DNA from: a virus
IMG/VR virus record: IMGVR_UViG_3300033978_000457
Coordinates: 36,126-100,125 of that record
Length of the DNA: 64,000 bases
Direction: 5' to 3' (one strand)
Both the position numbers and the translations under genes were made by a program. The notes beneath the pieces are model-generated. The model was not told the DNA's origin, did no database searches, and saw only the letters and a program-made list of their open reading frames with translations. Shown piece by piece: positions 39,697 through 62,437 of the stretch; within the stretch, counting starts at the first letter, position 1, and each line of letters opens with the position of its first letter.

Positions 39697-39715
39697 TTGT
39701 TTCCTTTAAATTTAT

Positions 39716-40077
39716 AATACCAGCCACACCGTAAAGTATGGCTGGTACTACGTCCAGAGTTTCTGTTTCTAGGCCTCTGTAACTCCCAATAAGGGTTACG
39801 CCGCTAAGCGCATGTCCTCAAATGCTACGTTGTCGTTTGCATTTAGTTGTTTTTGAACTTCTAACGGAGTTCATTCGAGTTGTCCACTATTTTACAACGC
39901 CAGTCGATCCTATGTCGCCCCCATCAAAAACATACCAACCCCTATCCGAGGCCCCACTGATAGTTGGGCTTAGCTCTAAGCTCTATCAGAAGCCGTCGAG
40001 TTACCGAGGTATGCTTTTGGTGGAGGCGCCGGGTACTGCCCCCGGGTGTTGCCGCCTTATCGTCGTTTCATACAACT
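39716..40077 (-). ncRNA. ssrA: circularly permuted two-piece tmRNA; tag (A)ANDNVAFEDMRLAA
   Basis: Acceptor piece ends CCCGGGGGCAGTACCCGGCGCCTCCACCA (40018) upstream of coding-piece start GGGGGCGACATAGGATCGAC (39922); G3-U70; tag ORF 39796-39840. Confidence 0.95.
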
Positions 40078-40585
40078 ATAATTTAGGTTTATTGATAATA
40101 TCAATAGAAGCTTGAGTTGTGTCGATGATCACGTCTTTTTGACTAATGATCTCTTCCATGATCTTAGACACTTCATTACTAGTAAGTCCTAGTGAATCTT
40201 GTGCCTCAAAAAGTTTTGCGGAAAAAGCAGAAGCATGAAGAGAATACTGAACTTTCATATCCCGAAGAATTTTAGCAAGTTCAACAACTGCCTTAGGGTA
40301 CTTGTTTTCCACTGCATTAACAATAGTTTCAACAGTAATCACAGGCTTCTTAACTTCTTTTTCTAATGCTTCCTGCATCATAACCTTTCCAACATAACCC
40401 GGCGTTCTATAATCTACAGGCTCAACGCTGCCCGTAATTCCTATTGCGCCCTTTGCCTCATCAGTATAGGACGGTTCAGGAGTAATGTCAAGTACCATAT
40501 TCTGATATTGAGACAGCACTCCATTTCGATCCCTAACTGGAAGGAGCTTTCTAAAAAAATCAGTCGTTTTATTCTTGAAGTTCAT
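40076..40585 (-). CDS. hypothetical protein
   Basis: ORF with SD. Confidence 0.55.
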   Translation of the reverse strand: MNFKNKTTDFFRKLLPVRDRNGVLSQYQNMVLDITPEPSYTDEAKGAIGITGSVEPVDYRTPGYVGKVMMQEALEKEVKKPVITVETIVNAVENKYPKAVVELAKILRDMKVQYSLHASAFSAKLFEAQDSLGLTSNEVSKIMEEIISQKDVIIDTTQASIDIINKPKL

Positions 40586-55054: not shown

Positions 55055-55129
55055 TGGCGATCACGGTAGGACTCGAACCCACATAATTGTGCTTAGAAGG
55101 CACATGCCTATCCTTTAGACTACGTGATC
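55055..55129 (-). tRNA. tRNA-Arg(UCU)
   Basis: CTTCTAA loop, CCA. Confidence 0.9.
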
Positions 55130-55218
55130 AGTACGTTTATAAATAAATTTGTCTGTTGGCTTAACAGAGTCCCACAGCATTAGTGCCATACCAAGGACTA
55201 CTTGAATTACGAAAAGCA

Positions 55219-55545
55219 TTAGTCTAATTCCCTTTTTGTTATTTGTTTACCTATGCGGCGCGTATCTTTAGAAGATTGACGCTTGAGCGCACGATTGTTT
55301 CTGCGCTTAGCCCCAGTTTCATTAAACGTATCCATTTTACCAGAACCATCTGGCTTAGCAGACTCAAAACGCCAGTAGCCACGAGACTTCTCGTTTTTAC
55401 CATCAGCACCCTTCTCAGTGAGTTTCTGGTCCCTGCGCTCACGAGCTTCTCTAGCGGCGTTCCGATATAGATTTACCCCAAGGCTTGCCCATGTTCTTAG
55501 GGTGCGCTTGGGGTATACGTGATTATTTCGTTTTGTGTCACTCAT
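55219..55545 (-). CDS. basic hypothetical protein
   Basis: Arg/Lys-rich ORF. Confidence 0.5.
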   Translation of the reverse strand: MSDTKRNNHVYPKRTLRTWASLGVNLYRNAAREARERRDQKLTEKGADGKNEKSRGYWRFESAKPDGSGKMDTFNETGAKRRNNRALKRQSSKDTRRIGKQITKRELD

Positions 55546-55701
55546 TTTAAACAGTCCTAGCAAGCCGGTGGGGTATCTGGGATTAGTGATATCCTATTCT
55601 ACCCGTAGGTAGAACTCCTTGCCCATCCTCCGTTTAACGTATGGCCTGTTACGTCTGCCCGTCGGCACTTTCCTTACTACGCTAGGACTCTTTAAAGTGA
55701 G

Positions 55702-55775
55702 TGGTGCTTCTTCTGAGAATCGAACTCAGGATTGAGGATTACAAAACCACCGGTATACCATTTACCTAAAGAAGC
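55702..55775 (-). tRNA. tRNA-Thr(UGU), weak anticodon stem
   Basis: TTTGTAA loop, two U-U mismatches, CCA. Confidence 0.8.
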
Positions 55776-55822
55776 ATGTGGAGTGTAAGTTTTGATTAGC
55801 ATTTCTCCAGTGGCTAATTCTA

Positions 55823-56119
55823 TTATACTACAACTGCAGTAGGAGCGCTGTCTCTGTATCCTGGGCCCTTAGCGTTACTGGCACGCACTGTGCAAATAAT
55901 TCTACGCCCAACATCCCCAGCTACAACTACGTATGTATTACCTGTTGCAGTACCTGTACCGTTCCAAGAATAAGTGTATGACAGCGGTGTATTAGTCCAA
56001 GTTCCGTTAGATACCGTCAATGTTTGGCCCACCGCAGCAGTTCCAGTTATAGCAGGAGCTACTGTATTTTTAGGCCTTAAAAGGCGACGACGACGTCTAC
56101 TAGGTAATACTTCTTGCAT
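55823..56119 (-). CDS. small Ig-like domain protein
   Basis: P.ITGTA.VGQTLT...GTW, YTY.W, D.G..I.C.V.A.N. Confidence 0.75.
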   Translation of the reverse strand: MQEVLPSRRRRRLLRPKNTVAPAITGTAAVGQTLTVSNGTWTNTPLSYTYSWNGTGTATGNTYVVVAGDVGRRIICTVRASNAKGPGYRDSAPTAVVV

Positions 56120-56239
56120 ACGATTCCTTTAAAGGCTGCTCGATTGAGGGCTCTTACCCCACCATTCGCTAGGCATCGCTCATCCTAGTGGTGTATTCTC
56201 ACCCGTATCTTAGTTGGGACCAAGCCGTTATGATTTTGA

Positions 56240-56314
56240 TGGCGTTCCAAGAGAGAGTCGAACTCCCGACCTAACCGTTCGTAGCGGTTTGCTCTTCCTC
56301 TGAGCTACTGGAAC
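56240..56314 (-). tRNA. tRNA-Arg(ACG)
   Basis: CTACGAA loop, CCA. Confidence 0.92.
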
Positions 56315-56418
56315 ATATTGAATTAGGTAGAGCTGCAGTTCATGAGAACCCTAGCTGAGAGGGTGTGTGACATTCGCTTAGCCCACACAACTCGTTAGTG
56401 GGTACTCGTACCTAAAGA

Positions 56419-56494
56419 TGGCGGTTCTGACGGGTACCGACCCCGCTAATGTCCGGTTGACAACCGGGTGTGTTTACCAATTCACCACAGAACC
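56419..56494 (-). tRNA. tRNA-Asp(GUC)
   Basis: TTGTCAA loop, atypical T-loop GTCGGTA, CCA. Confidence 0.88.
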
Positions 56495-56569
56495 AATAAT
56501 GGATTAGAAGGTAACGGCTTACACGCTACAGCTGGCTGGAGGCATTTCTGACACTCCCTTCTAAATGTA

Positions 56570-56783
56570 TAATATATAAGAGAGTTGTGCTTCTTCTTTT
56601 TCCCAATAGTCTTTTTCTGAGCGTCGACGCCCGTGTGAGAAAGAATCTAAGGTAGTGATAGCAGGATTGAAGCTGCTAGAAGTGGCACTTAAACCGCGCA
56701 ACTATAGAAACGTGCTTACCCGTCTTCACACGGTCCGACATTCCGCCTATAGCCTGTAGCTAACACAACTCACTTATATATTA
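56570..56783 (-). ncRNA. ~214-nt rod-like RNA, 6S-like architecture
   Basis: Closing stem of about 20 bp, central bubble, inner GTCGGACCGTGTGA/TCACACGGGCGTCGAC stem. Confidence 0.55.
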
Positions 56784-56786
56784 TCA

Positions 56787-56861
56787 TGGAAGTCCCTGCG
56801 GGTTCCGACCCCGCTTCCCGTGAGTGAAAATCACGGATCCTAGCCACTAGACGAAGGGACC
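56787..56861 (-). tRNA. tRNA-Glu(UUC)
   Basis: TTTTCAC loop, T-loop GTCGGAA, CCA. Confidence 0.88.
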
Positions 56862-56881
56862 ATCTCTGATCTTGTATACGT

Positions 56882-56922
56882 AGTATAGCTCCGATTGAGC
56901 TCGTAGTCAAGAACTATTTTTT
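56882..56922 (-). promoter_or_regulatory. sigma70-type promoter of the tRNA/ncRNA operon
   Basis: AAAATAGTTCTTGACT-N17-TATACT. Confidence 0.85.
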
Positions 56923-56935
56923 AAATCTTAGAAGG

Positions 56936-57010
56936 TGGCACGAGGGGAGAGAATCGAACTCTCATCTACGGTTTTGGAGACCGTCATTCTAGCCGTTGAA
57001 CTACACTCGC
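56936..57010 (-). tRNA. tRNA-Trp(CCA)
   Basis: CTCCAAA loop, CCA. Confidence 0.92.
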
Positions 57011-57027
57011 GCACAGCCCTCTAAACT

Positions 57028-57198
57028 TTACTCAGCAACTCGTGTAGGCTCATCAACAGGTGGAGTTACAGGAAGAGGCTGAGGCTCAGAACCTGGACCT
57101 GCATCAGCAGGAGGAGGAATTACGTCTGGCTTGGGCTCGCTATTGGAGCAAGCAGTAGCCATAAGAGCAAGAGCGATAGTTGCAGTAATAAGTTTCAT
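57028..57198 (-). CDS. small Pro-rich lipoprotein
   Basis: MKLITATIALALMATAC lipobox. Confidence 0.7.
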   Translation of the reverse strand: MKLITATIALALMATACSNSEPKPDVIPPPADAGPGSEPQPLPVTPPVDEPTRVAE

Positions 57199-57225
57199 TT
57201 TAGTCCTTTCAGTTACAATTAAAGA

Positions 57226-57308
57226 TGGTGTCCACGGAGAGACTCGAACTCTCACGATTACTCGCTGGATTCTAAGTCCAGTGCGTCTACCAATTCCGCC
57301 ACGAGGAC
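57226..57308 (-). tRNA. tRNA-Leu(UAG)
   Basis: CTTAGAA loop, V-arm, CCA. Confidence 0.93.
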
Positions 57309-57314
57309 ATTGTA

Positions 57315-57397
57315 TGGTGGGCAGCTGTGGTTACGATCCACTCCCCAAAGGACGGGTTTTACAGACCCGATGCTGAAACCATCAGCTTTAGCTACCC
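57315..57397 (-). tRNA. tRNA-Tyr(GUA)
   Basis: CTGTAAA loop, V-arm, T-loop ATCGTAA, CCA. Confidence 0.85.
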
Positions 57398-57619
57398 AAA
57401 GTATTTCTCTACGGACCATTGACCAAGCTCGGTGTACCCACCAATAACTACACCATCAACCACTACGCATGGGACGGTAGGCCAAATCTGTTTGTATTCT
57501 TCACTAGTAATATCTTCACCAACCCTAACCTGGATGTAATTAATTGCTAGCATATTAAGTAAATTGCGTGCTTTTACACAATAAGGGCAATCTTCTTTAG
57601 TATATAGAACAATTTGCAT
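57392..57619 (-). CDS. glutaredoxin
   Basis: CPYC, TVP, IGGY. Confidence 0.92.
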   Translation of the reverse strand: MQIVLYTKEDCPYCVKARNLLNMLAINYIQVRVGEDITSEEYKQIWPTVPCVVVDGVVIGGYTELGQWSVEKYFG

Positions 57620-57634
57620 TAGGTTTCCTTATGT

Positions 57635-57708
57635 TGGAGCGGACTACGAGATTCGAACTCGTTTCGACGGGTTGGAAACCCGAGGCACAACCCATATACC
57701 AAATCCGC
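57635..57708 (-). tRNA. tRNA-Gly(UCC)
   Basis: TTTCCAA loop, U73, CCA. Confidence 0.92.
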
Positions 57709-57714
57709 TAAAAA

Positions 57715-57792
57715 TGGCTGGTAGCATTGGACTCGAACCAATCTCATTCCCGGTTAACAGCCGGGCACCCTCACCTGGAGAGCTAGCTACCA
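57715..57792 (-). tRNA. tRNA-Asn(GUU)
   Basis: CTGTTAA loop, CCA. Confidence 0.9.
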
Positions 57793-57972
57793 AGAAGAAT
57801 AGTCCGTAATATCTACTTTAACGAGAATAAACGGATCGTCTATAAATCTAAACATAGCATCTACGGCAATCCCTATGCCAGTTTGATGCTCAATAAGACC
57901 AGCAAAATAAATGTCATCCGAAGTGGCAAGTATAGTATCAATATGCCCATGCTCTACTTCGTTAAGCGTCAT
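57787..57972 (-). CDS. hypothetical protein
   Basis: ORF with SD; stop codon inside tRNA-Asn. Confidence 0.5.
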   Translation of the reverse strand: MTLNEVEHGHIDTILATSDDIYFAGLIEHQTGIGIAVDAMFRFIDDPFILVKVDITDYSSW

Positions 57973-57988
57973 TTTAAATTCCTATGAT

Positions 57989-58064
57989 TGGCTGGGGCTG
58001 ATGGACTCGAACCACCGCATGGTAGAATCAAAGTCTACTGCCTTACCAGCTTGGCTAAGCCCCA
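57989..58064 (-). tRNA. tRNA-Gln(UUG)
   Basis: CTTTGAT loop, CCA. Confidence 0.95.
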
Positions 58065-58069
58065 GCAAA

Positions 58070-58145
58070 TGGTGGACCCTATCGGACTCGAACCGATCAC
58101 CTCCTGCGTGCAAAGCAGGCGCTCTCCCAGATGAGCTAAGGGCCC
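58070..58145 (-). tRNA. tRNA-Ala(UGC)
   Basis: G3-U70, TTTGCAC loop, CCA. Confidence 0.96.
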
Positions 58146-58322
58146 TTATTTAATCCTAATCTTCTGCACCCTAGTTTTAGGAGCTGCATCTTCCATTCTA
58201 TGCTTATGGTCTAGCCAACCAGCAGCCCACTCTGTAGCTTTCCAACTACCTCTATCGTAGGGATTCCGCTCTATGGGTACACCTTCGATGCGGGCCATTC
58301 TTCCTAGGCTGTATTCTTCCAT
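58146..58322 (-). CDS. Rmf/CrpP-like small protein
   Basis: Manual ORF: LGRMARIEG...NPY......W..GW. Confidence 0.55.
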   Translation of the reverse strand: MEEYSLGRMARIEGVPIERNPYDRGSWKATEWAAGWLDHKHRMEDAAPKTRVQKIRIK

Positions 58323-58335
58323 AAGTCACCTATAA

Positions 58336-58421
58336 TGGCGGAAAGCTGAGGTCTCGATCCCCAAACCTTTCGGTTCGCTTCCTTTAGCAAAGGAGCACAG
58401 ACCCTGTCTGCTTAACTTTCC
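58336..58421 (-). tRNA. tRNA-Ser(GCU)
   Basis: TTGCTAA loop, V-arm, CCA. Confidence 0.88.
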
Positions 58422-58627
58422 GTATTTTCTGCTCCGAAGAGATTAGTCCACTCTTCAGGTGTCACACCTGTCATAAGGAATTCCCGCTCACCTGCTGTCA
58501 GGTTCGGGAATGCATCTTGAATGAGAGGTCCGAAACCGCTTGCCCAAGTGGCGTAGGCTTCGGGGTCAATGTTCAGTTCCATGGTGTTAGCCGCGCCAGT
58601 AAAGGCAGAGATACGACCGATCTTCAT
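58412..58627 (-). CDS. conserved phage hypothetical protein
   Basis: LIQDAFPNLT..EREFLMTG.TPEEW. Confidence 0.7.
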   Translation of the reverse strand: MKIGRISAFTGAANTMELNIDPEAYATWASGFGPLIQDAFPNLTAGEREFLMTGVTPEEWTNLFGAENTES

Positions 58628-58676
58628 TTAGTTCTCCATCATTGAACAAACAGTATAACCCGCATTGAGCGGGTTG

Positions 58677-58895
58677 TCAAGAACTTTTTTTTAAGCTGTC
58701 TTCGTATTTTTTTGCCTTTTTAAAAGCTTCTCTAAATGCACGTTTAGGATTGTTTGCTATAGCAACGCATAGCACTGGCTCAAAAGCTAGCACATCCTTT
58801 GCTAAAATGACTTCCCACAGGTCTAGTCCTTGAGATATAGTCATTCGCCAATCTTCACCAAGTTTACGAAGGTCTTGCTCTTGCTCTACTAGCAT
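58677..58895 (-). CDS. hypothetical protein
   Basis: ORF with SD. Confidence 0.5.
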   Translation of the reverse strand: MLVEQEQDLRKLGEDWRMTISQGLDLWEVILAKDVLAFEPVLCVAIANNPKRAFREAFKKAKKYEDSLKKSS

Positions 58896-58905
58896 CTTTA
58901 ACTCC

Positions 58906-58983
58906 TGGAGGAAAGGGTGGGATTCAAACCCACGGTTTTAAGGATTTGCAGTCCCTTGCGTTGGGTCACTCCGCCACCTTCCC
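58906..58983 (-). tRNA. tRNA-Cys(GCA)
   Basis: CTGCAAA loop, U73, CCA. Confidence 0.9.
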
Positions 58984-59074
58984 GAAAATATCAACTAGGT
59001 CCACTCAGGGGTTACAGCCCCTCGCTTCGCCCCCTGTAAGGAACCGCGCTGCGATATCCTGCGCGCCTATTCTT

Positions 59075-59150
59075 TGGAGAACCAGGTGAGACTCGAACTC
59101 ACGTAAAGGAGATTAAGAGCCTCCCGCTAAACCACCTCAGCTACTGGTTC
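59075..59150 (-). tRNA. tRNA-Lys(CUU)
   Basis: CTCTTAA loop, CCA. Confidence 0.9.
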
Positions 59151-59318
59151 AATAGTGTAATATACTTCGCCTAGCGAGTCATCTTCAGCGTCTACCCTTA
59201 GATATTCTGCTACTAGCTCGACAGCTTCTTCTATAGAAGGTATCTCTATAGCAAAAGCTCTATGATCATCAGTATAACCGTACTCGTCTAGAGTATGGGT
59301 CAATATTCGGTATTTCAT
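59127..59318 (-). CDS. small acidic hypothetical protein
   Basis: ORF with SD; probable paralogue of 60102-60251. Confidence 0.55.
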   Translation of the reverse strand: MKYRILTHTLDEYGYTDDHRAFAIEIPSIEEAVELVAEYLRVDAEDDSLGEVYYTIEPVAEVV

Positions 59319-59333
59319 AGTTACCTCTAAAAT

Positions 59334-59408
59334 TGGAGAACCAGGAGAATTTCGAAATCTCAACCTGCGGATTAAAAGCCCGACGCTCTGCCTTTGAGCT
59401 ACTGGTTC
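59334..59408 (-). tRNA. tRNA-Lys(UUU)
   Basis: CTTTTAA loop, CCA. Confidence 0.9.
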
Positions 59409-59414
59409 ATTATT

Positions 59415-59490
59415 TGGTACGCGGTGAGGGATTTGAACCCCCGACCAAGCCGTTATGAGCGGCCGGCTCTAACCACTGAGCTAACCGCGT
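59415..59490 (-). tRNA. tRNA(CAU), probably Ile2
   Basis: GGCCG-CTCATAA-CGGCT arm; paired 1-72 so not an initiator. Confidence 0.85.
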
Positions 59491-59757
59491 TTAAAACATT
59501 CCGTCGTGCAGCTCTGGGTCATAAGGTTCTGCCCAGCCTTCGATGTGCTCTGTATAGCTGTCCTGATGCTCTTCGTCTTCAAACTCTTCGGGAGCATCTT
59601 CTATCGGGTAGTACCCGTATGACTCTGCATGTTGCAATGCCATGTCCCACACAACGCTATTTAAGTCTTCTTGTGTGTGGTCGTCAGGCATTTCCAGCAT
59701 TTCAGCACACTCTGTGCCCACTGTGGCAGCAAACATATGCACTACGTACTTTTTCAT
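59491..59757 (-). CDS. acidic hypothetical protein
   Basis: A.QHAESYG...YDPELHD. Confidence 0.6.
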   Translation of the reverse strand: MKKYVVHMFAATVGTECAEMLEMPDDHTQEDLNSVVWDMALQHAESYGYYPIEDAPEEFEDEEHQDSYTEHIEGWAEPYDPELHDGMF

Positions 59758-59774
59758 TGCTTTTCTCTATAAAA

Positions 59775-59849
59775 TGGTACCCGGTGACGGGATTGAACCG
59801 CCGACAATTCCCGTGTAAAGGGAGCACTCTACCGCTGAGTTAACCGGGC
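59775..59849 (-). tRNA. tRNA-Val(UAC)
   Basis: TTTACAC loop, CCA. Confidence 0.95.
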
Positions 59850-59857
59850 TTAAAATT

Positions 59858-60021
59858 TGGTCAGTGTGCCATCTAGGCGTCTCCGGCCCACGCCGGTGTT
59901 CTAAGCTTTACCCTGTTGTCTCCTGTACACCTGTGCACGGATAACAAGCCTACGCTAGGGAATCTGCAACCTACTCTGCCCGTTAACAAGGCTACCCTCA
60001 GTTCCACTAAACTAACACTGA
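59858..60021 (-). ncRNA. ~164-nt CCA-terminated tRNA-like RNA
   Basis: TCAGTGT...ACACTGA-CCA terminal stem, D-arm-like start, large insert. Confidence 0.6.
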
Positions 60022-60024
60022 TTC

Positions 60025-60098
60025 TGGTACTTCTTAAAAGAATCGAACTTTTATCTAACGCCTATCAAGCGCCTGCTCTACCATTGAGCTAAAGAAGT
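60025..60098 (-). tRNA. tRNA-Ile(GAU)
   Basis: TTGATAG loop, CCA. Confidence 0.88.
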
Positions 60099-60101
60099 AT
60101 A

Positions 60102-60251
60102 TTATTGTACTGGCTTGATCATGTAGTAGTGTTCTTCGTCCTCGAACTCATCTGCATCGAGATAAGAATCTACTAGCTCGTCGGCCTCTTCACGAGTTAC
60201 ATTACGGTCGATAACTACGCCGTCCATGTATACGTTGTATTTCTTTTCCAT
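60102..60251 (-). CDS. small acidic hypothetical protein
   Basis: Manual ORF MEKKYNVYMDG...EEADELVDSYL...YYMIKPVQ. Confidence 0.55.
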   Translation of the reverse strand: MEKKYNVYMDGVVIDRNVTREEADELVDSYLDADEFEDEEHYYMIKPVQ

Positions 60252-60265
60252 GTTTCACCTGTAAT

Positions 60266-60348
60266 TGGTATCCCCTGCCGGAATCGAACCGGCACTCCGA
60301 AGAAACAGATTTTAAGTCTGCCGCGTCTACCAGTTTCGCCAAGGGGAC
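60266..60348 (-). tRNA. tRNA-Leu(UAA)
   Basis: CTTAAAA loop, V-arm, CCA. Confidence 0.93.
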
Positions 60349-61274: not shown

Positions 61275-62190
61275 TAAACTTCTCTGACCAAGCTCCGACC
61301 TTCGCTTGGGCAAGTCTCTAGCAATCTAGAGCCCTATAGAGTTTTGCAAAACTCTTCCACATCATTAAGGTAGGGCCACGACTTCCTACATCACGATGGT
61401 CATTTTTAACGAAAGGATGCTTGCATCCAAAACGCCGGGGCGGTACCGGTCTAACCGCCTATGCACATAATTTGAGTACTACTTATGTGACTGAAGTAGA
61501 CGGGGGCTCTCACCCAACTGGTCCGCACTATCACGGATATCTACTTAGTGGAACGTGATGTTAATGACCTCTTACCACTATGCGTCAAGTATTAGGACTT
61601 TAAAGTGCGTGCAATACCAATGCACTGAGGAGTAGGAAAATTCCTCGTCTGATTTTGGTACAGACCCTTCCAAGAACACCGTAGCGCCTACCGCGTCTAC
61701 CGGAATAGCCCAGGCTTTCAACCTGCACTTGTCTTGCATTCCTCGTGCGCAAAACCAAACACTATCCAATGTACCCCTTTGGCAGGAGCGTATCTTAAAC
61801 TAGAGTACGCACAGTAGTGAGTTACAAGTTTCTCACTAATAGCTGTCTCGCCGCTATTGCCCCTCGTCTATATGTCGGTGGGGTGTACCGGAACTGGAGA
61901 CGAGTAATGCCTTTCGGCACTTATTTACGTCTAGTGCGTTCGATTAATCGCGTCCAATCGCTCCCGTCATGGATCAGGTGGGTTTCAGAGGTCTCTATTG
62001 ACTTACCCATATCTCAACTCTGAGGCAAGGGGTCCCTTACGAGGCTCCCGAAGACTCTGGGCTTTTAGATTTCGCCCTACCTGTGCAACTTGAGGGTGTG
62101 CACAACCGCAGTAAGTGATTAGGTTTTAGCTCACTAGGGCTTTGTTTGTAATACGAGGTCAAGCCCTGTCTACATACAAACAACCATAAA
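61275..62190 (-). ncRNA. candidate giant ornate structured ncRNA (~0.9 kb)
   Basis: No credible ORF; many hairpins with GNRA loops and pseudoknot complementarities; downstream of promoter 62310-62349. Confidence 0.7.
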
Positions 62191-62309: not shown

Positions 62310-62437
62310 AGTATACACGATATGGGCCCTGCAGTCAAGAACTATTTTTCAGGCCTCGGGGAGAACTTCTTCTGGTTGTTCTCCCATCGTTTAAACAGTA
62401 TAGCTGAGCTTCAGTCCCCAGTCAAGAAGTATTTTTT
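62310..62437 (-). promoter_or_regulatory. tandem sigma70-type promoters driving the ncRNA/tRNA operon
   Basis: Two TTGACT-N17-TATACT (62310-62338 and 62397-62425). Confidence 0.85.

What the first reader, a model, noticed from the sequence alone, without database searches (positions are those of the whole stretch)
59858..60021. 164-nt CCA-ended RNA: tRNA shell around a ~110-nt insert
Seen: it fills the slot between tRNA-Ile(GAU) and tRNA-Val exactly. It starts TCAGTGT-TA-GTTTAGTGGAAC (acceptor plus D-arm-like) and ends ACACTGA-CCA. The interior has several stems (CCTAGCGTAGG, GTGCACAGGTGTAC, GGCGT..ACGCC with crossing CCGG/CCGG) but no TTC loop. Inference: an aminoacylatable or decoy tRNA-like RNA of unknown class.
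Basis: partly seen in the sequence, partly recalled or inferred. Interest (0 to 1): 0.75.

Follow-up and report, generated by a model that had tools for sequence, protein, structure and literature searches.

The report
Orphan CCA-ended RNA in phage tRNA operon
A 164-base stretch between two tRNA genes of an uncultured lake phage related to T5 most likely encodes a small stable RNA that is cut out of the tRNA transcript like a tRNA; it resembles the still unexplained "stable RNAs" of phages T5 and T4, it is not a tRNA, and its job is unknown.

Summary
On the minus strand, 59858-60021 fills the Ile(GAU)-Val(UAC) slot. It begins UCAGUGU-UA-GUUUAGUGGAAC and ends ACACUGA-CCA. A flush 7-bp stem plus CCA arose in 55 of 200,000 shuffles of the gap.

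It is not a tRNA around an insert:
- It has no T arm and no anticodon arm.
- Rfam gives no hit even at E<=10.
- ARAGORN finds nothing, and none of 2,277 internal deletions yields a tRNA.

It is a discrete accessory cassette. The closest relative contig and a near-identical variant join Ile and Val directly, skipping 170 nt at ACCA repeats. One population variant carries 1 change in 164 nt. One metatranscriptome contig covers exactly positions 21-161 and nothing of the flanking ORFs. I found no homologue anywhere, so covariation could not be tested.

The closest known things are the annotated "stable RNAs with unknown functions" in the T5 tRNA region, above all RNAI (107 nt, terminal stem, GCCA), and T4 RNAC/RNAD.

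Best reading (0.55): a stable RNA matured by the tRNA-processing enzymes, cargo function unknown. Charging is unsupported.

The scan has noted similar stem-closed cassettes in other phage tRNA operons, but no look-alike of this sequence. Verdict: new member of a known, unexplained kind; moderate-low interest.

The parts
59858..60021 (-). The whole 164-nt candidate RNA (position 1 = 60021, position 164 = 59858)
   Evidence: It is a discrete indel unit relative to L003 and to an X20 contig. An RNA-library contig covers 59861-60001.
60015..60021 (-). P1 5' strand, UCAGUGU (positions 1-7)
   Evidence: Pairs with positions 155-161. Pair probabilities 0.69-1.0.
59861..59867 (-). P1 3' strand, ACACUGA (positions 155-161)
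59858..59860 (-). Encoded 3' CCA (positions 162-164), followed by the AU-rich trailer AAUUUUAA, as behind the tRNAs of the operon
   Evidence: All 18 cluster tRNAs encode NCCA.
59999..60014 (-). D-arm-like hairpin (positions 8-23; UA-GUU-UAGUGG-AAC)
   Evidence: Matches the tRNA 5' consensus at U8, A9, G10, A14, G18, G19. It shares up to 15 of 24 bases with real tRNAs of related arrays. Pair probabilities about 0.6.
59966..59995 (-). P3, irregular hairpin (positions 27-56)
   Evidence: MFE only; not tested by covariation.
59912..59948 (-). P4, long hairpin (positions 74-110; inner GUGCA-CAGG-UGUAC)
   Evidence: Inner helix probability 0.68-0.99, outer 0.51-0.67.
59883..59896 (-). P5, CCGGC-GUGG-GCCGG hairpin (positions 126-139)
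   Evidence: Probability 0.97-1.0.
59868..59878 (-). P6, GCC-UAGAU-GGC mini-hairpin directly abutting the P1 3' strand, in the place of a T arm (positions 144-154)
   Evidence: Probability 0.91. The loop is not a T loop.
59855..60024 (.). The 170-nt segment missing in element-free relatives (replaced by one T); the breakpoints lie in the ACCA repeats of tRNA-Ile and of the element
   Evidence: X20 contig joins 59854 to 60025. L003 has Ile and Val 6 nt apart. The BLAST blocks overlap on ACCA.
60025..60098 (-). Upstream neighbour tRNA-Ile(GAU), ending ACCA, 3 nt before the element
59775..59849 (-). Downstream neighbour tRNA-Val(UAC), 8 nt after the element's CCA
62310..62425 (-). Two tandem sigma-70-like promoters, the nearest upstream on this strand. 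No promoter or terminator lies next to the element.
   Evidence: consensus matches only.

Best explanation
The stretch is a gene for a small stable non-coding RNA of about 161-164 nt. It is an accessory cassette of the tRNA operon of a T5-like lake phage.

Proposed biogenesis (inferred, not shown):
- It is co-transcribed with the tRNAs from the promoters near 62340/62425.
- Its acceptor-like terminal helix with encoded CCA and AU-rich trailer lets the host's tRNA-maturation enzymes excise it: RNase P at the 5' side of the helix, RNase E and 3' exonucleases trimming back to CCA.
- The helix and the CCA end then protect it from decay.

The interior (P3-P5, about 130 nt) would be the functional cargo, most likely a binding surface for a host or phage protein. 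Its target is unknown.

It is the same kind of thing as phage T5 RNAI (terminal stem + GCCA) and the other T5 and T4 'stable RNAs with unknown functions'. It is not homologous to them in sequence.
For: - Shown: the terminal 7-bp helix plus CCA is flush with the inter-tRNA slot, which occurred in 55 of 200,000 shuffles. The trailer and leader resemble those of the 18 neighbouring tRNAs. No promoter or terminator lies beside it.
- Shown: it behaves as one unit. L003 and an X20 contig whose flanks are 100% identical lack exactly 170 nt, 59855-60024.
- Shown: a diverged population variant (X15) has 1 change in the 164 nt, against 4 changes plus a 3-nt deletion in the adjacent 130 nt of ORF49.
- Hint: the only piece of this 1-kb stretch that is at least 99% identical in metatranscriptome X19 is a 162-nt contig covering positions 21-161. 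It ends on the last base of the helix, and nothing lies on the flanking ORFs.
- GC is 0.53, against 0.43 for the window.
- Precedent: the T5 annotation lists eight stable RNAs among its tRNA genes. RNAI (GGCUC...GAGCC-G-CCA), RNA3 (ACCA), RNA2H and RNAIV all have terminal helices. T4 RNAC and RNAD lie in the T4 tRNA cluster, with roles unknown (PMC3014915, PMC9697503).
- The phage is T5-like. Its PolA is 48% identical to Proteus and Klebsiella phages of 97-113 kb, which I take from my own knowledge to be T5-like. It also has SbcC and DnaB.
- Processing model for CCA-encoding polycistronic tRNA transcripts: PMC2190699.
Against: - No homologue was found in the phage records, in 49 related tRNA arrays plus 10 metagenome loci, in five related viral records, in T5 or T4, or by exact-word scans of the viral and genome collections. 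No covariation test was therefore possible.
- The fold is no more stable than shuffles (z about -1.1), the same as the coding controls. Proven stable RNAs such as T5 RNAI and T4 RNAD score no better.
- The element is dispensable: close relatives lack it.
- The RNA evidence is one low-depth contig from a run that was chosen because it holds these words. Contigs cannot show ends or strand.
- The helix lacks a proper discriminator register.
- Processing by RNase P and RNase E is inferred, not shown.
Confidence: 0.55

Rival explanations
1. It is a non-functional remnant: a decayed tRNA gene or a recombination scar left in a hypervariable tRNA region. It is transcribed only because it sits in the operon.
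For: - The 5' 24 nt keep the tRNA acceptor/D-arm consensus, but the rest has no tRNA features.
- It is an orphan with no homologues.
- It is absent from the closest relatives.
- Its fold z-score equals that of the coding controls.
- The region is a mosaic of small cassettes.
Against: - A perfect 7-bp helix plus CCA flush with the slot is rare by chance.
- The diverged X15 variant has only 1 change in 164 nt, while the neighbouring ORF changed more.
- The only RNA contig of this phage in X19 over the 1-kb stretch falls on it.
- Its GC is raised, as in structured RNA genes.
Confidence: 0.2
2. One reading: a tRNA mimic that is either charged with an amino acid or acts as a decoy for host factors that recognise the acceptor stem and CCA end. 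Examples would be tRNA-targeting defence toxins or tRNA-end-modifying enzymes.
For: - Acceptor-like helix, CCA and D-arm-like motif.
- Phage tRNA clusters are known places for counter-defence tRNAs (my own knowledge, not tested here).
- Other agents of this scan noted ACCA-ended tRNA-shaped phage RNAs (leads only).
Against: - It has no T arm, no anticodon arm and no discriminator in register.
- It has none of the acceptor-only identity marks: G3:U70 for Ala, G-1 for His (read from the sequence; the rules are from my own knowledge).
- Nothing links it to a defence system, and it is absent from close relatives.
Confidence: 0.1
3. It is a small mobile element (MITE-like) that inserted behind the CCA of tRNA-Ile. 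The 'stem' would be a 7-bp terminal inverted repeat and the 'CCA' a duplicated target.
For: - Presence/absence is clean between near-identical genomes.
- ACCA stands on both sides of the indel.
- TCAGTGT...ACACTGA is an inverted repeat in the DNA.
Against: - There is a single copy in the 100-kb genome and none elsewhere.
- The repeats are only 7 bp.
- The spacer behind the second CCA (AAUUUUAA) does not equal the empty site (AUUUAA), so there is no clean target duplication.
- Loss or gain by recombination at the ACCA repeats explains the indel equally well.
Confidence: 0.07
4. It encodes a 44-aa peptide (GTG at 60007 to the stop at 59873, minus strand).
For: The frame is open.
Against: - It has a GTG start with no Shine-Dalgarno sequence before it (read from the sequence).
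- It is Arg/Cys-rich, unlike the two small ORFs of the cluster that I read: ORF88, which is acidic, and the ORF in the Lys-Lys gap.
- No PHROG match.
- The one natural change is non-synonymous (Gly to Ser, read by eye).
Confidence: 0.03

Closest known systems
Phage T5 RNAI (rnaI, 107 nt) and the other annotated stable RNAs of the T5 tRNA gene region (RNAIII, RNAIV, RNA2H, RNA1, RNA2, RNA3, RNAX; NC_005859)
   Same: - It lies between tRNA genes on the tRNA strand of a T5-type genome.
- It is closed by a terminal helix. RNAI ends GAGCC-G-CCA and RNA3 ends ACCA, so they have an encoded CCA end without a full cloverleaf.
- Sizes are 73-172 nt.
- They are annotated as stable RNAs with unknown functions.
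- The fold z-score is similar to that of RNAI and RNA2.
   Different: - There is no sequence or covariance-model similarity.
- RNA1 and RNA2 of T5 keep a canonical T arm; this RNA does not.
- It has a D-arm-like 5' motif, which I did not see in RNAI by eye.
- Its existence as an RNA is only hinted at, whereas the T5 RNAs are annotated as stable RNAs.
Phage T4 RNAC and RNAD (species 1 and 2 RNAs) in the T4 tRNA cluster
   Same: - They are small RNAs (139 and 119 nt) that directly follow tRNA genes.
- They are transcribed from the tRNA region; RNAC and RNAD were detected by RNA-seq and a Northern assay in T4 infection.
- Their function is unknown (PMC3014915, PMC9697503).
- RNAD runs into CCA.
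   Different: - RNAC has a canonical T arm (CCGGG-UUCGAAU-CCCGG) and no encoded CCA.
- There is no sequence similarity.
- The phage lineage is different.
tRNA (Rfam RF00005), including intron-containing tRNA
   Same: 7-bp terminal helix, U8-A9, a D-arm-like hairpin with GG, an encoded CCA, and the position in a tRNA array.
   Different: - It has no T arm and no anticodon arm.
- No discriminator base is in register.
- It is 164 nt long.
- There is no model hit, and no internal deletion restores a tRNA.
Bacterial Y RNA (YrlA) and tmRNA, two other tRNA-mimicking RNAs
   Same: A terminal helix formed by the 5' and 3' ends, plus partial tRNA mimicry.
   Different: - Both depend on a T-arm-like module, which is missing here.
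- No Rfam family of any kind hits the element, and ARAGORN finds no tmRNA in it.
- The phage already has a two-piece tmRNA at 39705-40135.

Membership tests
tRNA (RF00005) | T arm with a T loop stacked on the acceptor stem | tested here: not met
   No tRNA model hit at E<=10. ARAGORN finds none. The 3' side has only a 3-bp hairpin with the loop UAGAU.
tRNA (RF00005) | Anticodon arm (5-bp stem, 7-nt loop) | tested here: not met
   Only a below-threshold ARAGORN drawing at 70% stringency.
tRNA (RF00005) | 7-bp acceptor stem + discriminator + CCA | tested here: inconclusive
   The choice is 7 bp then CCA with no discriminator, or 6 bp + A + CCA with the D-arm out of register. All 18 cluster tRNAs have 7 bp + N + CCA.
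tRNA with an intron or insert | Removing one internal segment restores a cloverleaf | tested here: not met
   ARAGORN intron mode finds none. 0 of 2,277 single-deletion derivatives were called tRNA.
tmRNA | tRNA-like domain with a T arm plus a tag reading frame | tested here: not met
   ARAGORN tmRNA mode finds none. No Rfam tmRNA hit on the element.
Phage tRNA-region stable RNAs (T5 RNAI etc., T4 RNAC/RNAD; a class defined by place and behaviour, not by homology) | Encoded among tRNA genes on the same strand, with no promoter or terminator of its own | tested here: met
Phage tRNA-region stable RNAs | Closed by a terminal helix, in some members followed by NCCA | tested here: met
   Compare T5 RNAI and RNA3.
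Phage tRNA-region stable RNAs | Accumulates as a discrete stable RNA during infection | tested here: inconclusive
   One 162-nt contig in one metatranscriptome covers positions 21-161, with no cover on the flanks. Contigs do not show ends, strand or level.
Phage tRNA-region stable RNAs | Sequence or structure homology to a T5 or T4 member | tested here: not met
   The covariance model with filters off found nothing meaningful in the T5 and T4 regions.
MITE / IS-derived element | Several copies, long terminal inverted repeats, target-site duplication | tested here: not met
   Single copy. The repeat is 7 bp. The flank behind the second CCA differs from the empty site.

The most novel reading that the evidence does not exclude
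The RNA is a minimal acceptor-end mimic: helix, CCA and D-like hairpin, with no T arm or anticodon arm. It would use tRNA maturation for its own biogenesis and then act as a decoy or sponge for a host factor that recognises tRNA 3' ends, for example a tRNA-end-directed defence toxin. That would make it an RNA anti-defence cassette that is gained and lost between otherwise near-identical phages.
Probability: 0.07. Interest if true: 0.7.

Novelty: new member of a known kind. Interest (0 to 1): 0.33.

Why it matters
Small stable RNAs inside phage tRNA clusters have been known from T4 and T5 for about fifty years (my own knowledge of the dates), and not one has a function. This element adds an uncultured freshwater example with a clean natural presence/absence polymorphism between near-identical phages. 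In principle that allows a comparison with and without the RNA. It also shows that an acceptor-like helix plus CCA, without the rest of a tRNA, recurs as the frame of such RNAs. By itself it is an orphan with thin evidence, so its value lies mainly in being one more data point for a class that deserves systematic study.

Tried and rejected
**Homologue searches, all empty**
- blastn 'distant' against the phage records.
- Exact-word scans of IMG/VR with a 5', a 3' and a central word, and of the genome collection.
- nhmmer and blastn against 10 metagenome loci and 49 related viral loci.
- The single-sequence covariance model R1 over 662 kb of related loci, five related viral records, and the T5 and T4 tRNA regions.
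- The one 15-nt match, in L024, lies on the strand opposite its tRNA array and is chance.

**Other points**
Contigs of the closer ORF88 homologues (P0002, P0004) could not be fetched that way. The metagenome scan gave L003, which carries P0003.
- RNA runs: X20 does not hold the element, only the empty site.
- X19's contig has 10 and 11 unmatched letters at its ends. I considered read-through into adapters from a 141-nt insert (141 + 10 = a 151-nt read). I could not see the letters, so this stays a guess.
- Fold stability was rejected as a criterion. The element's z of -1.1 equals that of the coding controls and also that of proven T5 and T4 stable RNAs.
- A screen of 145 inter-tRNA gaps in related arrays for other CCA-ended stem-closed slots found mostly tRNAs that ARAGORN had missed, and nothing like this element.
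- The T5 RNAX region shows no sequence similarity to the window's 0.9-kb non-coding head region.
- I ran no further search on the 44-aa frame.

Full report
**What is there.**
The window is the right-hand 64 kb of a 100,125-nt IMG/VR viral record from lake water. The record encodes a family A DNA polymerase, an SbcC-like protein and a DnaB-like helicase. Its polymerase is 48% identical to those of Proteus and Klebsiella phages of 97-113 kb, which I take from my own knowledge to be T5-like.

ARAGORN finds 21 tRNAs and a two-piece tmRNA, and Rfam recovers them apart from one weak tRNA, all on the minus strand. Eighteen of the tRNAs form a cluster at 55055-60348, interleaved with small ORFs.

The finding lies between tRNA-Ile(GAU) (60025-60098) and tRNA-Val(UAC) (59775-59849). 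On the minus strand the gap reads GAA, then 164 nt, then AAUUUUAA.

**Is it more than chance?**
- A perfect 7-bp Watson-Crick helix that starts within the first bases of the gap and is followed by CCA near its end arose in 55 of 200,000 dinucleotide-preserving shuffles.
- The helix has pair probabilities of 0.69-1.0 in the thermodynamic ensemble.
- Three further hairpins are well predicted: positions 84-97, 126-139 and 144-154.
- The whole molecule is not more stable than shuffled sequence (z -1.2; -1.1). That is no better than two coding controls. It is also no worse than T5 RNAI, T5 RNA2 or T4 RNAD, so this measure decides nothing.
- GC is 0.53, against 0.43 for the window.

**It is not a tRNA, with or without an insert.**
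- Rfam 15 gives no hit of any family on the element, even at E<=10 in a 173-nt search.
- ARAGORN finds nothing in tRNA, intron, tmRNA or mitochondrial modes. At 70% stringency it only draws implausible cloverleaves.
- I deleted every internal segment that leaves 66-98 nt. That made 2,277 constructs, and ARAGORN called none a tRNA.
- There is no T arm. The 3' strand of the helix is preceded only by a 3-bp hairpin with the loop UAGAU.
- The first 24 nt do match the tRNA consensus at U8, A9, G10, A14 and GG, sharing up to 15 of 24 bases with real tRNAs of related arrays. Descent of the 5' end from a tRNA gene is therefore plausible.
- The helix-CCA register is off. Either it has 7 bp and no discriminator, or 6 bp plus A73 with the D-arm displaced. 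All 18 neighbouring tRNAs have 7 bp + N + CCA.

**It is a discrete, dispensable cassette.**
The adjacent 88-aa ORF led to the closest relative contig, L003, where that ORF is 72% identical. In L003, Ile and Val are 6 nt apart.

A BLAST comparison shows a backbone that is 76-97% identical, broken by small cassettes present in one genome or the other. The two blocks that flank our element overlap on ACCA: the 3' end of tRNA-Ile in L003 aligns with the 3' end of the element.

Laying public runs on the region gave three results:
- A contig in run X20 has flanks 100% identical to ours and joins 59854 to 60025, skipping 170 nt with one T in between.
- A DNA variant in run X15 carries the element with one change (G72A). 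It has four changes and a 3-nt deletion in the adjacent 130 nt of ORF49.
- In the freshwater metatranscriptome X19, the only piece at least 99% identical is a 162-nt contig covering 59861-60001. That is positions 21-161, ending on the last base of the helix. Nothing lies on the two flanking ORFs.

The X19 result is a hint of a discrete abundant RNA, not proof. The run was chosen because it holds these words, the depth is 3.6, and contigs cannot show ends or strand.

**No relatives.**
Nothing similar was found by blastn in 50,697 phage records, by four exact-word scans, or by nhmmer and blastn in 59 related loci. A covariance model built from the sequence and its predicted fold also found nothing in 662 kb of related tRNA arrays, five related viral records, or the T5 and T4 tRNA regions.

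**How it most likely works.**
The nearest promoter-like sites on this strand are at 62425 and 62338, and the next is at 58680. No promoter or terminator adjoins the element. It is therefore probably part of a polycistronic tRNA precursor.

In E. coli such precursors are separated by RNase E cuts 1-3 nt behind each encoded CCA and by RNase P at each 5' end (PMC2190699). The element offers the same signals: an acceptor-like helix, CCA and an AU-rich trailer like those behind Val, Lys and Asn.

I infer that it is excised by the tRNA-processing enzymes and persists as a stable RNA whose interior is the functional part. The processing steps and any function are inferred, not shown. Charging is unlikely. 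It has no anticodon, no G3:U70 and no G-1 (read from the sequence; the identity rules are from my own knowledge).

**Comparison with what is known.**
The RefSeq record of phage T5 annotates eight misc_RNAs among its tRNA genes, as 'stable RNA with unknown functions' or 'tRNA-like stable RNA'. In sequence:
- RNAI (107 nt) is GGCUC...GAGCC-G-CCA, a terminal helix plus NCCA without a cloverleaf.
- RNA3 ends ACCA.
- RNA2H (172 nt), RNAIV and RNAIII are closed by helices of 8-12 bp.
- RNA1 and RNA2 keep a T arm.

T4 has RNAC and RNAD directly behind tRNA-Arg. Their roles remain unknown (PMC3014915). They were detected by RNA-seq and a Northern assay in T4 infection (PMC9697503). Rfam has no family for them.

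The element therefore belongs to a known but unexplained kind, and its architecture is closest to T5 RNAI. It is not a homologue of any known member.

**Earlier notes of this scan** (leads only). They describe stem-closed RNA cassettes in other phage tRNA operons, one of them in a freshwater T5-like phage. None shares this sequence.

**Verdict.**
- The 'tRNA shell around an insert, perhaps aminoacylatable' reading is only partly supported.
- Most likely (0.55) this is an orphan stable-RNA cassette of the T5/T4 kind.
- Rivals: a decayed remnant (0.2), a tRNA-end decoy or charged mimic (0.1), a MITE-like insertion (0.07), and a 44-aa peptide (0.03).

Noticed in passing
window 56495-56786 (minus strand): The 292-nt gap between tRNA-Glu and tRNA-Asp has no credible ORF. 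It folds with a closing helix of about 20 AU-rich pairs that starts directly behind the CCA of tRNA-Glu. It looks like another stable-RNA cassette, resembling T5 RNAIII and RNA2H in being closed by a long terminal helix.
   Followed up: partly
window 61275-62190 (minus strand): About 0.9 kb without a credible ORF lies just downstream of two tandem strong promoter-like sites (62425, 62338). Parts of it are 82-96% identical in L003. By position it parallels the 719-nt RNAX of T5, which follows a promoter and precedes tRNA-Arg, but blastn and nhmmer find no similarity.
   Followed up: partly
window 58984-59074 and 56315-56418 (minus strand): Two more short non-coding gaps, of 91 and 104 nt, lie between tRNAs. 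Both have GC-rich predicted hairpins and no ORF.
   Followed up: no
L002 2762-2922: In a related 105-kb phage, the slot before the ORF88 homologue holds a structured segment of about 95 nt closed by UAGAUGA/UCAUCUA. It is directly followed by a tRNA-like gene whose anticodon arm is cut down to 9 nt (Rfam tRNA 29.0 bits, exactly at threshold). ARAGORN misses it.
   Followed up: partly
L032 11574-11699: A CCA-ended RNA of about 112 nt with a canonical T arm (GUGGG-UUCGAGU-CCCAC) and an acceptor-like helix lies between tRNA-Leu and tRNA-Val of a related phage. ARAGORN does not call it. It may be an oversized tRNA-like RNA of the T5 RNA1/RNA2 type.
   Followed up: no
whole record (G000), window 1-64000: The phage carries 21 tRNAs but none for Ser, Tyr, His or Phe in the assembled record. 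The record ends 4 kb beyond the cluster and is rated 96% complete.
   Followed up: no
window 59127-59363 (minus strand): A small ORF with a good ribosome-binding site (GAGG + ATG) in the Lys(UUU)-Lys(CUU) gap runs 24 nt into the 5' part of tRNA-Lys(CUU).
   Followed up: no
window 39705-40135 (minus strand): The phage encodes a permuted two-piece tmRNA of the alphaproteobacterial type (tag ANDNVAFEDMRLAA), which hints at an alphaproteobacterial host.
   Followed up: no
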